This document shows, piece after piece, positions 26,306 through 37,900 of a stretch of 64,000 bases of DNA (position 1 is the first letter of the stretch; the number at the start of each line of letters is the position of its first letter). Position numbers and translations under genes: made by a program. Source of the DNA: the human T2T-CHM13v2.0 reference genome, Homo sapiens; NCBI RefSeq assembly GCF_009914755.1, contig NC_060927.1; one strand, written 5' to 3'. Below the pieces are notes generated by a model. That model saw only the letters and a program-made list of their open reading frames with translations. It searched no databases and was not told the DNA's origin.

Positions 26306-27329
26306 GGTGGAGCCAAGATGGCCGAGTAGGAACAGCTCCAGTCTATAGCTCCCAGCACGAGCGATGCAGAAGATGGGTGATTTCCGCATTTCCAACTGAG
26401 GTACCAGGTTCATCTCACTGGGGAGTGCTGGACAATTGGTGCAGGACAGTGGGTGCAGCCCACCGTGCGTGAGCTGAGGCAGGGCGAGGCATCGCCTCAC
26501 CCGGGAAGTGCAAGGGGTCAGGGAATTCCCTTTCCTAGTCAAAGAAAAGGGTGACAGACGGCACCTGGAAAATCGGGTCACTCCCACCCTAATACTGCAC
26601 TTTTCCAATGGGCTTAACAAACGGCACACCAGGAGATTATATCCCGCACATGGCTTGGAGGGTCCTACACCCACAGAGCCTCACTCATTGCTAGCACAGC
26701 AGTCTGAGATCAAGCTGCAAGGTGGCAGCGAGGCTGGGGGAGGGGCACCTGCCATTGCCCAGGCTTGAGGAGGTAAATAAAGCAGCAGGAAGCTCGAACT
26801 GTGTGGAGCCCACCACAGCTCAAGGAGGCCTGCCTGCCTCTGTAGGTTCCATCTCTGGGGGCAGGGCACAGACAAACAAAAGACAGCAATAACTTCTGCA
26901 GACTTAAATGTCCCTGTCTTACAGCTTTGAAGAAGGTAGTGGTTCTCCCAGCATGCAGCTTGAGATCTGAGAATGGACAGACTGCCTCCTCAAGTGGGTC
27001 CCTGACCCCCGAGTAGCCTAACTGGGAGGCACCCCCCAGTAGGGGCAGGCTGACACCTCACACGGCTGGGTACTCCTCTGAGACAAAACTTCCAGAGGAA
27101 GGATCGGGCAGCAGCATTTGCGGTTCACCAATATCCACTGTTCTGCAGCCACCACTGCTGATACCCAGGCAAACAGGGTCTGGAGTTGACCTCCAGTAAA
27201 CTCCAACAGACCTGCAGCTCAGGGTCCTGACTCTTAGAAGGAAAACTAACAAACAGAAAGGACATCCACACCAAAAACCCATCTGTACGTCACCATCATC
27301 AAAGACCAAAGGTAGATAAAACCACGAAG
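26306..27329 (+). promoter_or_regulatory. L1 5'UTR internal sense promoter (YY1 site aagatggcc) and antisense promoter region
   Basis: YY1 motif at about 26315-26323. CpG decay is visible, so activity is unknown. Confidence 0.75.
26540..26755 (-). pseudogene. L1 antisense ORF0, truncated
   Basis: MAGAPPPASLPPCSLISDCCASNE* (stop at 26683-26681), continuing in frame as VGVGPSKPCAGYNLLVCRLL...IRVGVTRFSRC. Confidence 0.85.
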
Positions 27330-28356
27330 ATGGGAAAAAAACAGAGCAGAAAAACTGGAAACTCTAAAAATCAGAGTGCCTCTCCTCCTCCAAAGGAACA
27401 CAGCTCCTCACCAGCAATGGAACAAAGCTGGATGGAGAATGACTTTGACGAGTTGAGGAAAGAAGGCTTCAGAAGATCAAACTACTCCGAGCTAAAGGAG
27501 GAAGTTCAAACCAGTGGCAAAGAAGTTAAAAACTTTGAAAAAAAAATTAGACGAATGGATAACTAGAATAACTAATGCAGAGAAGTCCTTAAAGGACCTG
27601 ATGGAGCTGAAAACCATGCCATGAGAACTACGTGACAAATGCACAAGCCTCAGTAACCGATGCGATCAACTGGAAGAAAGGGTATCAGTGATGGAAAATG
27701 AAATGAATGAAATGAATGAAATGAAGCGTGAAGAGAAGTTTAGAGAAAAAAGAATAAAAAGAAATGAACAAAGCCTCCAAGAAATATGGGACTATGTGAA
27801 AAGACCAAATCTAGGTCTGATTGGTGTACGTGAAAGTGACAGGGAGAATGGAACCAAGTTGGAAAACACTCTGCAGGATATTATCCAGCAGAACTTCCCC
27901 AATCTAGAAAGGCAGGCCAACATTCAAACTCAGGAAATACAGAGAACACCACAAAGATACTCCTCGAGAAGAGCAACTCCAAGACACAAAATTGTCAGAT
28001 TCACCAAAGTTGAAATGAAGGAAAAAATGTTAAGGGCAGCCAAAGAGAAAGGTTGGGTTACCCACAAAGGGAAGCCCATCAGACTAACAGCTGATCTCTC
28101 GGCAGAAACTCTACTAGCCAGAAGAGAGTGGGGGCCAATATTCAACATTCTTAAAGAAAAGAATTTTCAATCCAGAATTTCATATCCAGTCAAACTAAGC
28201 TTCATAAGTGAAGGAGAAATAAAATCCTTTACAGACAAGCAAATGTTGAGAGATTTTGTCACCACCAGGCCTGCCCTAAAAGAGCTCCTGAAGGAAGCAC
28301 TGAACATGGAAAGGAACAACCGGTACCAGCCACTGCAAAAACATGCCGAATTGTAA
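27330..28356 (+). pseudogene. L1 ORF1p, disrupted
   Basis: MGKKQSRKTGNSKNQSASPPPKE...RYQPLQKHA; frameshift in the A-run at ~27540 and TGA at 27622. Confidence 0.95.
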
Positions 28357-28404
28357 AGACCATCAAGACTAGGAAGAAACTGCATCAACTAATGAGCAAA
28401 ATAA

Positions 28405-32234
<3,830 letters not shown>

Positions 32235-32819
32235 ACAATGAGAACACATGGACACAGGAAGTGGAACATCACACACCGGGGACTGTTTTGGGGTGGGGGA
32301 AGGGGGAAGGGATAGCATTAGGAGATATACCTAATGCTAAATGACGAGTTAATGGGTGCAGCACACCAACATTGCACATGTATACATATGTAACAAACCT
32401 GCATGTTGCGCACATGTACCCTAAAACTTAAAGTATAATAATAATAAAAAATATATATAAATAAATGATTTATAAGATATAAAAAAAGTATATGAAAAAT
32501 TAGGTAGAAGGTAGAAGGTACAGATTTTATCACCTAAAGTTTACCTTTTTAAAATATAGTTTGGCCAAGTAGCCAAAGTGGGTTGTCCAGCTAACAACTA
32601 AGTGACAAATGTGCCAGAAAATATAGTCATCGGCATTTTATAAGACAGATACAAAGATTAAAATCCCAATGTTTTAGTAATTATAAAAGTCCAATAACAA
32701 ATCCTAACAGGAAAAAAATGGAATAGCATGGAAATTCCAGAAAAATCAATATTATGTGGGAAGTGACAGCCTTGTCAACAAAGATAATTTGTATTCAATT
32801 GTATTACTTTTTAAAAAAT

Positions 32820-33190: not shown

Positions 33191-33807
33191 CAGAAATACA
33201 TCATTTTATTGCATTTTGCAGATATTGAATTTTTTACAAATTGAAAGTTTGTGGCAGCCGTGTATTGAGCAGGTCTGTTGGTGCCATTTTCCAACAGCAT
33301 GTGTTCACTTTGTGTCTTTGTGTCATATTTTGGTAATTCCCACAATATTTCAAAGTTTTTGTATTATTATTACATCTGTTATGGTAACCTACAACCATCT
33401 TTGATGTTACCACTGTAATTGTCTTGAGGCCCCACAAAGTGCACCCATATAAGATGGCAAATTTAATCAATAAATGGTGTGTGTGTGTTTGTGTGTGTGT
33501 GTCCTGATAATTCCACTGATGGCCATTCCCCCATGTCTCTCCTACTCTCTGGCCTTCCAGTTCCCTGAGATGCAAAACTATTGAAATTAGGCCAATTAGT
33601 AACCCTACAATGGTCTCTATGTGTTCAAGTGAAAGGAAGAGTCACATGTCTCTCATTTGAAATAAAAAACTAGAAATGATTAAGCTTAGTGAGGAAGGCA
33701 TGTCAAAAGCCACAACAGGCCAAAAGCTAGGCCTCTTGTGCTAAAGAGTTGGCCAACTTGCGAATGCAAAGGAAAAGTTCTTGAAGGAAATTAAAAGTGC
33801 TACTCCA

Positions 33808-34542
33808 TCCCGTTGTGCACATGTACCCTAAAACTTAAAATATAAAAAAAAAATAAGTACTCTTAAAGCTAGCACTGTTTTGATCCCCATCACTGAAGTT
33901 TGCAACATTTACCTTATTTGTTCAATATAGTGCATTTTAACAGAACATGTTAGAAAAGACAGATTACTGCCACAGATGAAAACTGGATGGTTTTCTTTTG
34001 TTTGTTGAAAACCTTATTACTTTGACAGCTTGAGATTCTGGAGACATCACCTTTCTATGTACTTATTATTATTATTTTAAACAATCAACAGTTGTTAAAA
34101 TAAACAGTTAAAATAAAAGTTATTATTTTAAACAATCAAAATGCTTTAATCAGAACTTGTATGAAGAGTAGATTTGATGGACAATGTAAGAGGAAGCTTT
34201 GGAGCCTGATGAGAGGGACTCAAGGGGACTTTTTTGAGTCTTTGAGATGATGTCTCTGCCCATGCCCAGCCTGAAGAAGGGAATTCTAAGAATCACCATT
34301 AATTAATATGCATTCCTACCCTACTTACATATGGCTCTGTCAATACCAGTGGTTGAGTCTGATTGTTTTAACCAACTGTTTTGAGCTTGTCTTAGAGCTC
34401 ACCCCAATTAAAACTTGTACTCTTCAAGAGCATTGACATAGATCTTGGCCTTCTATTTCCATTTTGTCTCTGTTGTTTTATTACAAAGTAACAATTTCTA
34501 CATACTGTGGCTTCTACAGGTAGGCTTTATTTGTATCTGTGT

Positions 34543-34575
<33 letters not shown>

Positions 34576-34909
34576 ATAAATAATACCAATTTATAATCAT
34601 CTGGAGATTAATTTGATAATACTTTATGGTTGAAATTCTCTTACCTATTACCCAGCAATTCTGCTCCTAAGGGAATCATGCATGTATACAAGAAAACTTA
34701 AAAGGATATTTAATGCAACATTGTTTGTAATGGCAAAAAATGGTAAACAACGTAATTGTTCATCAGCAGGTAAATAAATGTACTATAGATTATATATGCA
34801 ATACAAATAGGATTCTGTGCAACAGTTAATATGAATAAATTGGATTTGAAAAATAAATATGATAAATCTCAAAAATATAGTATTGAGTATTAAAAAAACA
34901 GAAAAAAAT
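33808..34909 (+). mobile_element. L1-mediated 3' transduction (L1PA stub, ~1 kb transduced flank, A-tail)
   Basis: TSD aaaagtgctactcca at 33793-33807 and 34910-34924; L1 3' end cgttgtgcacatgtaccctaaaacttaaa from 33811. Confidence 0.88.
34543..34567. repeat. (CA)n microsatellite within the transduced segment
   Basis: About 12 CA units. Confidence 0.9.
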
Positions 34910-37900
34910 AAAAGTGCTACTCCAGAGAGCACATATATGATTAAAAAAAATAAAACGATCTTACTGATGATACAGAGAAAGATTTTGTGGTCTAGATAGA
35001 AGATAAAACCAGCCACAACATTTCCTTAAGCCAAAGCTGAATCCAGACCAAGGCCCTAACTATTCAATTCTATGAAGGCAGAGAGGTGAGGAAGCTGCAA
35101 CAGAAAAGATGGAACATAGCAGAGGTTGGTTCATGAGGTTTGAGGAAAGAAGCTTTCTCCATAACATAAAAGTGCAAGGTGAAGCAGCAAGTGCTGATAT
35201 AGAAGTTGTTTTTTATATTTGAGCAAAGAAAGTGCTTTCTTGAGATAGAATCTACTCCTGATGAAGATGCTACGAACATTGTTGAAATGACAACAAAGGA
35301 TTTAAAATATTACATACATTTAGGGGGTAAAGCAGCAATTTTGAGAGGATTGACTCCAATTTTGAAAGAAGCTCTACTGTGGGTAAAATGCTATCAAAAG
35401 GATGGTGAAAACGTTCTGTTGATGGATGATGGTAATAGTTGCACAACAATATTAATGTATTCAATGCCACTAAACTATACACTTAAGTTGTAATGGTAAG
35501 TTTCATGCTATGTTTTACCACAATAAAAAATCGACTTGTGGTAATGTTAGATTTTGATCTGAACTGCTAAACATCCCTAACGTTGTCCTGTCAAGGGGAA
35601 CCTCAGCCACCATGAAGCATATGACAAGAAGCCTCCACAAATATGAGCACTTCCCCATTTTACTGGCAAACAAGTGATGGGTCTTACTTGACCAGAATTC
35701 TCCCTTCTTCCACATAGTCTTACAGCTGTTTTAGGGGCAATGTCGAGACCTCATCTACAAGGATACCAGGGCACAGCCAAGGTTCCCTAGTGCCTGTTAA
35801 CATGATGTTTCTCTTCCTGGTCAGGCCATATATTCCTTCTCTGGAAATTGGTAGGAAGGTACAGTATCTGTGAAGGTTATTCTGTATAATACTTTAGGAT
35901 GCCTTAATTACTAGTTATAAATATGTTCTCTTGTATATTATGACTTGTTTGTCAGTCTGTACTTGCTCATGCCTTATTGCATGTCGTGTAAAGAAATTTT
36001 CATCTATCATCTACTTACTTCCTGTAAGGGGCACTCCTATTTGTTCATTCATTAATATGCTCTGCAGATTCCTTCCATTTTCATGCTCACTCTGTGACTG
36101 AGGGCCTAAGTAAGCCACATGGTGCATCAGCTTGGAGACAGATAAGAGGCAACCAGAATCCAGCTGTCAGCACTGTTGTTATTTACCCCAGTGACTATGC
36201 CTGTATTTCTCATGCTAGAGTTCTTCCTAGTGAGCGTCATTTTGCCTATCTCCAACAGTGAAAGCACTTGGCAAGTGCCTAACTGTCTTCTCTAAGTCTG
36301 AGTAAAATGGAGACAATTATTCTTCCTGGGGTTTTGACAATTAAATGAGAGAAAACATGGCATACAGTTAAACGATAAAGACATTCAATAAATGTTCTAT
36401 GAGTATATATATGAGTTATGTATCAGACACTTTTTGTGTGCAAATTTTAATCCCTTAGTAACCCTATATGAAACATTTATCCTAGTTTTACTGATAAAGA
36501 ATCTGAGGCTTGGAGAGGTTAAATGAAATATCCCAAGTTACACAGACTAATTTTACTTCAAGTCTGTGGAATTCCATGTTCCCAGTATCACATCATCCTT
36601 TACCAAAGAGCTAATGAACTGAGAAAGATAACACTGTTGGAAATATCTGAGATGTATTAAGACCAACAGTCTTTTAATACTATTCAAATAGGATAGCAAA
36701 TTGTTTTGCCTTCTACCAAGGTTATCTCAGTAATACCTAGCAAGAGATTTGGAGTTTTGTGCATTCTCTTGACCTAAAATTCCATGAACTGATTCCAGTT
36801 AATAGAAACTAACTTTCAATTAATAGAAACTACTTCATAAGGAAGTAATGAAAGGACTTAGGCACAAAAATCTTCACTACAGTTGTCAGTAATTGTGAAA
36901 AATTACAAAGCACCTAAACATACTTAAGTAGGAAATCAGTTAAATTACAAAATCTAATAGAATGTTATGCCATTATAAGTCTTATAGATGTATTTTTGAC
37001 ACACACATAAATAAAAACAGCATGTACAGAGTAGGCTGTGCACATACAGAAAATCGTCTAGAAACATATATTCTGAAAGGTGAACAACTATCTCTAGGTC
37101 ACATGAGATTATGGGTCATCATTCTCTCTTATCTGTATTTCTGATTTTTCTAAAATAAATATATACTACTTATCTACTAAAAGCATGATTTAAGATGTTT
37201 TTACTAAAAGGATGAATAATAAGATATTGATTAAAGAAAAAATTTGGGAAATTATCATTATAAAGAAATAACTGACACATCAGAAATATTTAAGGGATGT
37301 TTCTATGATTAATAAAACTCTAAAGAGAAATTATGAAAGGAAATTAACAAGGAAATACCACATTCTTCTGATTAGAGAGAAAGTACAGGGCTCCAAATGG
37401 GATAAATGTCAAGGAGCTTCCCTGATTTCTATTTGACCTCACATATAATGCAAGAGTACATCATAACAAAGCCCTGAGCAGCAGAGTAGTATAATATAAA
37501 TGAGCATTTCCAAATATATCCTATGGATAATACAAGTCCCCCCAGATGAATATTAGTAATATCAGTCTATGGTCAAATAAGCTTGTGAAGTGCTTGGTTT
37601 TAAAAAAGCTAAACCAATTTCTTTACTGCAGGATTTCTCAAACCCTTTGATATGCTTCATGCACTATGAGTCACCAAAAACAGATATAAGATGCATGCAA
37701 CGTTCACTAAATAAATGGAATTACATCATTACTGTGGCTTCTCTTTCCGAAATAATATTCCAGAAGACACTTCGAAAACCTGGATTTAAGGAACACATGG
37801 AGGGAGCCTACATAACTGAGCAGAATACTCACCAAAGGCAAGTGAAATTGAATATATGAAGTTTACATAGAGGGATTTTGAAAAATATCAGACAAAAACT

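What the first reader, a model, noticed from the sequence alone, without database searches (positions are those of the whole stretch)
33793..34924. Fossil L1 3'-transduction: ~1 kb of foreign genomic DNA inserted into Tigger1
Seen in sequence: Tigger1 breaks at ...gaaatt|AAAAGTGCTACTCCA and resumes 1.1 kb later after an exact second copy of that 15-mer. The site is TT/AAAA, the L1 endonuclease consensus. Inside, in order: a ~35-bp L1PA 3' tip, a short A-run, ~1040 bp of non-L1PA sequence, AATAAA at 34852 and an A-rich tail. The cargo contains a (CA)n and a degenerate old L1ME-like piece (~34600-34890). Established knowledge: L1ME families predate Tigger1 and could not have inserted into it themselves, and L1 read-through mobilises 3' flanks. 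Inference: the cargo is a copy of the flank of a source L1PA elsewhere and can identify that source. It is not the flank of the adjacent full-length L1 ending at 32484.
Basis: partly seen in the sequence, partly recalled or inferred. Interest (0 to 1): 0.8.

Follow-up and report, generated by a model that had tools for sequence, protein, structure and literature searches.

The report
Old L1-carried DNA copy from chr16
A 1.1-kb insert in an old DNA transposon is a retrotransposed copy of a chromosome 16 segment with a short L1 end attached, an ordinary relic of L1 activity, except that no L1 now sits at the chromosome 16 parent site.

Summary
An exact 15-mer (16 with the preceding T) flanks a 1.1-kb insert in a pogo/Tigger-type transposon. 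All 11 other copies examined carry that 15-mer once. In order, the insert holds 3-4 unassigned bases, a 34-base L1 3' tip, an A-run and 1.05 kb of foreign DNA.

The own-genome search found exactly one paralogue, C16:59425578-59426683 (minus strand). It differs by 41 substitutions in 1028 aligned columns (3.99%); identity is 90% when indels count.

- The chr16 parent has no L1 at the junction, and no L1PA-like DNA in the 20 kb fetched around it. Homology stops at TTCT/AAAAA, an L1-endonuclease-like site.
- Most of the "A-rich tail" is templated by chr16. Only four A are untemplated.

Best reading (0.65): a severely 5'-truncated L1 3' transduction whose source L1 on chr16 was never fixed or was later lost. 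Rivals are a reverse-transcriptase template switch from a chr16 transcript onto L1 RNA (0.15) and nested insertions (0.08).

No sibling copies exist in this assembly. This is a known kind of event, with no sign of function. Interest is low.

The parts
33201..33792 (+).
   Evidence: Aligns at 73-86% to 11 other genomic copies. The first look found 3755 candidates for 33560-33807. The homologous stretch of copy L015 encodes a CENP-B_N domain, E 1.3e-16.
33793..33807 (+). 5' copy of the target-site duplication (15 bases; 16 with T at 33792). It is preceded by TT, giving TT/AAAA
   Evidence: Present once in 11 of 11 other copies of the host repeat.
33808..33811 (+). 3-4 bases at the 5' junction that I could not assign (filler, or diverged L1)
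   Evidence: They do not align to the adjacent L1 end. Read directly.
33812..33845 (+). L1 3'-terminal tip, 34 bases, sense strand
   Evidence: 2 mismatches in 34 to 32405-32438, the end of the adjacent L1; 0 expected by chance. Alignment.
33846..33853 (+). A-run after the L1 tip (the whole run of 10 A is 33844-33853). The last five A also match the A5 at the chr16 junction
   Evidence: The blastn homology with chr16 begins at 33849.
33854..34904 (+). Cargo: a colinear copy of C16:59425578-59426678 (minus strand)
   Evidence: 41 substitutions in 1028 aligned columns and 69 gap columns. Only two copies in the assembly.
34543..34567 (+). (AC)n microsatellite inside the cargo, also present in chr16 (2 bases longer there)
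34676..34904 (+). Degenerate old L1 fragment (ORF2 C-terminal region, sense) that forms the 3' end of the cargo. It carries the poly(A)-signal-like hexamers at 34834, 34852, 34874 and 34889
   Evidence: DNA matches of 63-78% to 8 other loci. In 4 of those 8 (L003, L004, L006, L007) the matched place translates to L1 ORF2 C-terminus-like sequence at E 1e-3 or better. The chr16 parent gives E 0.021; the window copy gives no protein hit.
34905..34909 (+). Untemplated A4 (34905-34908), the remnant of the second poly(A) tail. T at 34909 is either a tail variant or the first base of a 16-base duplication
   Evidence: chr16 has 3 A after ACAG and then other sequence; the window has 7 A and then T.
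34910..34924 (+). 3' copy of the target-site duplication
34925..35208 (+). Host repeat resumes
   Evidence: Right-hand alignments to 9 of 11 other copies run from 34904-34909 to about 35141-35208.

Best explanation
This is a single L1-mediated retrotransposition event (target-primed reverse transcription). It pasted one chimeric RNA into a Tigger-type transposon on chr3.

Proposed sequence of events:
1. An L1PA element sat on chr16, at the TTCT/AAAAA site now at about C16:59426683.
2. Transcription ran past the L1's own poly(A) signal and through 1.05 kb of downstream DNA.
3. The transcript was cleaved and polyadenylated inside an old L1 fragment there.
4. L1 endonuclease nicked the chr3 target at TT/AAAA (or T/TAAAA).
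5. Reverse transcription copied the whole flank but only the last 34-35 bases of the L1 before the 5' end was joined. This produced a 15-16 base target-site duplication.

The source L1 on chr16 is absent from this assembly. Most likely it was a polymorphic insertion that never reached fixation; less likely it was later removed.

The insert is a neutral fossil. I see no sign of function.

Shown: the duplication, the L1 tip, the parent locus, the colinearity and the empty parent site. Inferred: that an L1 once sat at the parent site.
For: 1. A single exact 15/16-base duplication at a TT/AAAA site encloses the whole insert. The target is undisrupted, with one copy of the 15-mer, in 11 of 11 other copies of the host repeat.
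2. The order L1 3' end, then A-run, then unique DNA, then a second short A tail is the order of a partnered 3' transduction, as described in passages of PMC9311842 and PMC7058536. In chimeras made by template switching or RNA ligation, as censused in PMC11838501, the foreign RNA lies 5' of the L1.
3. The cargo is colinear with a single parent locus on chr16. That locus extends beyond the cargo on both sides, so chr16 is the donor.
4. In chr16 the homology stops exactly at a run of five A preceded by TTCT, an L1-endonuclease-like site. Runs of 5 or more A start at only 73 of 20000 positions there (0.37%), and 29 of these follow a T. This is what the 3' copy of the source L1's own target-site duplication would look like.
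5. The cargo ends 22-47 bases after AATAAA/AATATA hexamers and is followed by untemplated A.
6. The 3.99% divergence between the copies falls in the period when L1PA subfamilies were active. L1PA5 is put at 20.4 Myr in passages of PMC5237266; L1PA6 to L1PA3 are put at 26.8-7.6 Myr in PMC4083085.
Against: - No L1 lies at the chr16 junction in this assembly. No L1PA-like DNA was found in C16:59416001-59436000 at E 1e-5 or better. The defining feature, cargo directly 3' of a source L1, is therefore not observed.
- The A-run between the L1 tip and the cargo is short: 10 A, of which 5 may be chr16 sequence. That leaves the source L1 a tail of only about 3-8 A, unless the run has shrunk since.
- The terminal tail is only 4 A.
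- There are no sibling insertions with the same flank.
- 33808-33811 is unexplained.
Confidence: 0.65

Rival explanations
1. Template-switch chimera. L1 reverse transcriptase began on the poly(A) tail of an independent, unspliced chr16 transcript and copied about 1.05 kb. At the A5 stretch its T-ended cDNA jumped onto the poly(A) end of an L1 RNA, copied about 35 bases, and the product was then joined to the target. No L1 ever sat on chr16.
For: - The chr16 parent has no L1 at the junction, nor in the 20 kb fetched around it.
- The junction lies in an A-run, where a T-ended cDNA could pair with an L1 poly(A) tail.
- The A-run is short.
- Template switching by ORF2p is an accepted route to L1 chimeras (passages of PMC11838501).
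Against: - Known chimeras have the opposite order, with the foreign RNA 5' of the L1.
- It needs an independent polyadenylated transcript from an AT-rich stretch with no evident promoter. I had no annotation for chr16 to check this.
- The TTCT/AAAAA site is equally well explained by an L1 insertion site.
- Three chance requirements are replaced by one in the read-through model.
Confidence: 0.15
2. Two nested TPRT events. First a 35-base L1 stub with a poly(A) tail inserted and produced the 15-mer duplication. Later a 5'-truncated retrocopy of a chr16 transcript inserted into that A tail, and its own target-site duplication is hidden among the A's.
For: The cargo is flanked by A on both sides (10 A on the 5' side, 4-7 A on the 3' side). 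Poly(A) tails are good L1-endonuclease targets (established knowledge, recalled). The chr16 parent has no L1.
Against: - The 3' side holds only 4 untemplated A, too few for a retrocopy tail plus a duplicated A-tract plus the rest of the first tail, unless shrinkage was heavy.
- It needs the same unexplained chr16 transcript as the template-switch model.
- It needs a truncation point that happens to fall at the chr16 A5 run (0.37% of positions).
Confidence: 0.08
3. A DNA-level event, such as a double-strand-break repair patch or a segmental duplication, copied chr16 DNA into chr3 without reverse transcription.
For: None specific. It would explain the absence of an L1 on chr16.
Against: - The exact 15/16-base duplication at TT/AAAA.
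- An L1 3' tip at the 5' end.
- The cargo ends just after poly(A) signals, with untemplated A.
- The sense orientation of all parts.
Confidence: 0.02

Closest known systems
L1 3' transduction (partnered, with severe 5' truncation)
   Same: Same order of parts: L1 3' end, A-run, downstream unique DNA, second poly(A). One target-site duplication at an endonuclease-type site. The donor is on another chromosome. Description as in PMC9311842 and PMC7058536 (passages read).
   Different: Only 34-35 bases of L1 remain. The parent locus carries no L1 in this assembly. Both A-runs are very short.
Orphan L1 transduction
   Same: Unique DNA from downstream of an L1 is moved almost without L1 sequence (definition in PMC7058536).
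   Different: A true orphan has no L1 sequence at all. Here the 34-base tip survives and is what ties the event to L1.
U6/L1-type chimeric retrocopies (template switching or RNA ligation)
   Same: Two RNA-derived parts in the same orientation inside one target-site duplication (PMC11838501).
   Different: In the known class the non-L1 part lies 5' of the L1 part. Here the L1 part is 5' and ends with its own A-run.
Processed retrocopy of a cellular transcript
   Same: A colinear RNA-derived copy ending after poly(A) signals, with a target-site duplication.
   Different: There is no spliced gene structure and no known parent gene was checked. An L1 tip is attached at the 5' end.

Membership tests
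L1 3' transduction | Target-site duplication flanking the whole insert, at an L1-endonuclease-type site | tested here: met
   Exact 15-mer (16-mer) at TT/AAAA. The site is single-copy in 11 of 11 other copies of the host repeat.
L1 3' transduction | L1 3' end followed by an A-run and then non-L1 DNA, all in sense orientation | tested here: met
   34-mer with 2 mismatches to the adjacent L1 end; then A10; then the chr16-derived cargo.
L1 3' transduction | Cargo ends at a downstream poly(A) signal and carries a second poly(A) tail | tested here: inconclusive
   Hexamers end 7-47 bases before the templated end, but only 4 untemplated A remain.
L1 3' transduction | The parent locus holds the cargo directly 3' of a full-length L1 | tested here: not met
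   The parent was found on chr16, but the junction is empty and no L1PA-like DNA lies in the 20 kb fetched. An unfixed or lost source would also give this result, so membership rests on inference.
L1 3' transduction | Empty site in species that diverged before the event | not testable with these tools
   No primate genomes are held.
Template-switch / RNA-ligation L1 chimera | The non-L1 RNA copy lies 5' of a 5'-truncated L1 inside one duplication | tested here: not met
   The order here is reversed: the L1 tip is 5' and the cargo 3'. Class as described in PMC11838501.
pogo/Tigger DNA transposon (host element) | Transposase with a CENP-B-type N-terminal DNA-binding domain; many dispersed copies | tested here: met
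   CENP-B_N, E 1.3e-16, in homologous copy L015 across the insertion site. 3755 first-look candidates, 40 scored at 85-88%. The window's own fragments gave no Pfam hit. The subfamily name Tigger1 was not tested.
Old L1 (L1M-type) fragment inside the cargo | Similarity to the L1 ORF2 C-terminal region | tested here: inconclusive
   Weak DNA matches to 8 loci, 4 of which translate to an L1 ORF2 C-terminus at the matched place. chr16 parent E 0.021; no protein hit for the window copy. Pfam gave 0 families.

The most novel reading that the evidence does not exclude
No L1 ever sat at the chr16 site. The insert would then be a reverse-order chimera. L1 reverse transcriptase would have started on a non-L1 polyadenylated transcript and jumped onto the 3' end of an L1 RNA. 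Chimera censuses that look for foreign RNA upstream of L1 would miss this class, and such insertions would be misread as 3' transductions whose source was lost.
Probability: 0.15. Interest if true: 0.35.

Novelty: new member of a known kind. Interest (0 to 1): 0.15.

Why it matters
This is a clean worked example of an old L1-mediated transfer of about 1 kb of chr16 DNA into chr3. The donor locus is identified to the base. The donor site is empty, which shows that the flank of a transduction can outlive its source L1. That is a caution for any attempt to trace ancient source elements from cargo alone. The insert can serve as a presence/absence marker for primate phylogeny. It changes nothing in what is known about L1 biology and has no evident function.

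Tried and rejected
**Pfam scans**
I then listed stop-free frames and scanned those.
- The window's own Tigger fragments, the old-L1 fragment of the cargo, and an L1 ORF2 C-terminal piece from L023 all gave 0 families.

**Protein search of the cargo**
- tblastn with the four open frames of 150 aa or more from the window's L1 found nothing in the cargo, chr16 or L003-L010. These frames do not cover the ORF2 C-terminus.
- I repeated the search with the C-terminal piece from L023.

**Searches for a source or siblings**
- Source L1 near the chr16 parent: none in 20 kb.
- Sibling transductions: none, using the whole cargo or its first 122 bases.

**Sources that were closed or not held**
- Ages were therefore taken second-hand from passages of PMC5237266 and PMC4083085.
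- My recollection that earlier surveys also met L1-less parent loci remains unchecked.

**Limits of what was tried**
- Dating is loose. Per-copy divergence is about 2.0%. This gives about 31 Myr at the 0.64 per Gyr rate quoted in PMC5237266. It gives about 12-20 Myr at faster phylogenetic rates that I recall but did not verify.
- The L1 subfamily of the 34-base tip could not be assigned. No repeat library is available here.
Full report
**What is in the sequence**

The 15-mer AAAAGTGCTACTCCA occurs exactly twice in the 64-kb window, at 33793-33807 and 34910-34924. None is expected in shuffled sequence. With the preceding T the repeat is 16 bases; the 17th base differs.

Between the two copies lie, in order:
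- four unassigned bases (33808-33811);
- a 34-base stretch (33812-33845) that matches the 3' end of the neighbouring L1 (32405-32438) with two mismatches;
- a run of ten A (33844-33853);
- about 1.05 kb of other DNA.

The neighbour is an L1 by Pfam. It has the ORF1 domains Transposase_22, Tnp_22_dsRBD and Tnp_22_trimer, plus Exo_endo_phos and RVT_1.

**The host element and the target site**

The flank 33560-33807 is a high-copy repeat. The first look found 3755 candidates, and 40 were scored: the window's own copy at 100% and 39 others at 85-88%.

I fetched 11 other copies and aligned the window to them:
- In all 11 the left alignment ends at window 33805-33808.
- In 9 of 11 it resumes at 34904-34909, with 16-21 bases of overlap in the subject.
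- L016 resumes at 34960, and L018 has no right match.

Each of the 11 copies has the 15-mer once (3 mismatches or fewer) at the homologous place, preceded by TT in 10 of 11. The insert therefore interrupts an otherwise continuous element, and the 15-mer is a target-site duplication at TT/AAAA.

In copy L015 the homologous stretch encodes a CENP-B_N domain (E 1.3e-16). This places the host among pogo/Tigger transposons. The window's own decayed fragments gave no Pfam hit.

**Where the cargo came from**

A search of the window's own assembly with 33854-34890 returned 14 candidates, all scored:
- the window itself;
- one full-length paralogue on contig 16, minus strand;
- 12 short weak matches to query positions 821-933.

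By blastn the homology runs from window 33849 to 34904 and corresponds to C16:59425578-59426683. It shows 90.05% identity over 1116 columns, with 41 mismatches and 10 gap openings.

In a global alignment of the core there are 1028 aligned columns and 69 gap columns. The 41 substitutions comprise 29 transitions and 12 transversions, 4 of them at CpG. That is 3.99% divergence, or 4.1% by Kimura's two-parameter distance.

Most gap columns come from a 59-base tandem duplication present only in chr16, and from a 9-base indel.

The chr16 sequence continues on both sides of the homology. The chr3 copy is bounded by the target-site duplication. So chr16 is the donor. The first 122 bases of the cargo also occur only at these two places. 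There are no sibling copies in this assembly.

**The two junctions in the donor**

*5' side.* chr16 reads ...GTTCT AAAAA TAAGTACT.... The window reads L1 tip, ten A, then TAAGTACT....
- There is no L1 3' end at the chr16 site.
- A blastn of the window's L1 (26400-32520) against C16:59416001-59436000 found nothing at E 1e-5 or better.
- The prediction that the paralogue lies directly behind an L1PA 3' end is therefore not met.
- The break does fall at an L1-endonuclease-like site, TTCT/AAAAA. Runs of five or more A begin at only 73 of 20000 positions in that region, and 29 of them follow a T.

*3' side.* chr16 shares the stretch A7-CAG-A3 with the window and then diverges.
- Only 34905-34908 (four A) is untemplated.
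- Candidate poly(A) signals end 44-47 bases (AATAAA, 34852), 22-25 bases (AATATA, 34874) and 7-10 bases (ATTAAA, 34889) before the templated end.
- ATTAAA at 34889 reads TATAAA in chr16.

**The old L1 piece in the cargo**

Window 34676-34908 gives weak DNA matches (63-78%) to eight other loci. In four of the eight (L003, L004, L006, L007) the matched place translates to sequence like the C-terminus of L1 ORF2 at E 1e-3 or better.

The query for that test was a 181-aa piece from L023 that is 91% identical to the window's own L1. The chr16 parent scores E 0.021. The window copy gives no protein hit.

An old, sense-oriented L1 fragment is therefore likely, and it supplies the poly(A) signals. Its subfamily was not tested.

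**Mechanism**

These are the hallmarks of target-primed reverse transcription by L1:
- a duplication at an endonuclease-type site;
- all parts in sense orientation;
- a 3' end just after poly(A) signals, followed by untemplated A.

The order L1 end, A-run, unique DNA, second tail is that of a partnered 3' transduction (passages of PMC9311842 and PMC7058536). Here the L1 part is cut down to 34-35 bases, which is close to an orphan transduction (definition in PMC7058536).

What is missing is the source L1. The simplest account is that an active L1PA sat at the chr16 TTCT/AAAAA site as a polymorphism and was never fixed, or was later removed. Non-reference polymorphic source elements are routinely allowed for in present-day data (PMC7058536, PMC9311842). 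I give this reading 0.65.

**Rivals**

*Template switch (0.15).* Reverse transcription would start on an independent chr16 transcript and jump, at the A5 stretch, onto the poly(A) end of an L1 RNA.
- It explains the empty donor site and the short A-run.
- Censused chimeras have the foreign RNA 5' of the L1, the reverse of what is seen here (PMC11838501).
- It also needs an unexplained transcript.

*Nested insertions (0.08).* An L1 stub would insert first, and a retrocopy would later insert into its tail.
- It needs the same transcript.
- It fits poorly with only four untemplated A at the 3' end.

*DNA-level copying (0.02).* This does not explain the TPRT hallmarks.

**Age**

About 2.0% divergence per copy gives roughly 31 Myr at the slow rate quoted in PMC5237266 (0.64 per Gyr). 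It gives roughly 12-20 Myr at faster phylogenetic rates that I recall but did not verify.

That span covers L1PA3 to about L1PA7. L1PA5 is put at 20.4 Myr (PMC5237266). L1PA6 to L1PA3 are put at 26.8-7.6 Myr (PMC4083085). For both papers I read only the passages found. The 34-base tip is too short for me to assign a subfamily here.

**What could not be done**

- No primate genomes, repeat library or chr16 annotation were available. The orthologue test, subfamily names and transcript evidence remain open.
- The original surveys of transduced sequences and of L1PA ages were not held.

**Verdict**

The event is of a well-known kind and has no evident function.

Noticed in passing
L002 about 1640-1760 (C16, minus strand), corresponding to window 34696-34754: The chr16 parent carries a 59-base tandem duplication that the chr3 copy lacks. 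The two chr16 units differ by 4 substitutions and a 4-base indel. The chr3 unit keeps a CpG that has decayed differently in each chr16 unit. This suggests the duplication arose in chr16 after the copy was made.
   Followed up: partly
L002 about 2660-2760 (C16), about 110-190 bases upstream of the cargo start: A second, diverged copy (76.8% over 82 columns) of the (CA)n and the roughly 60 bases after it (window 34530-34604) lies just upstream of the donor junction on chr16. It is an old local duplication and is not part of the transferred segment.
   Followed up: no
window 26477-32484: The adjacent L1 is near full length. Its ORF1 domains are recognisable, but ORF2 is broken into several open pieces of 299, 216 and 213 aa. 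Its tail region (32440-32484) is A/T-rich and irregular.
   Followed up: partly
window 35208-35490: The host Tigger-type copy seems internally deleted or rearranged after about 35208. Against L016 the alignment jumps from subject 1234 to 263. By my reading only, 35400-35490 looks like the 3' end of another old L1.
   Followed up: no
window 33808-33811: Four bases (TCCC) between the 5' duplication copy and the L1 tip match neither the host repeat nor the adjacent L1 end. They may be untemplated filler at the 5' junction.
   Followed up: no
L023 964-1009 and 247-789: Another copy of the host repeat (C10:48.10 Mb) has its own L1PA-type insertion nearby. Its L1 3' end matches window 33813-33856 at 91%, and its ORF2 C-terminal frame is open for 181 aa.
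   Followed up: no
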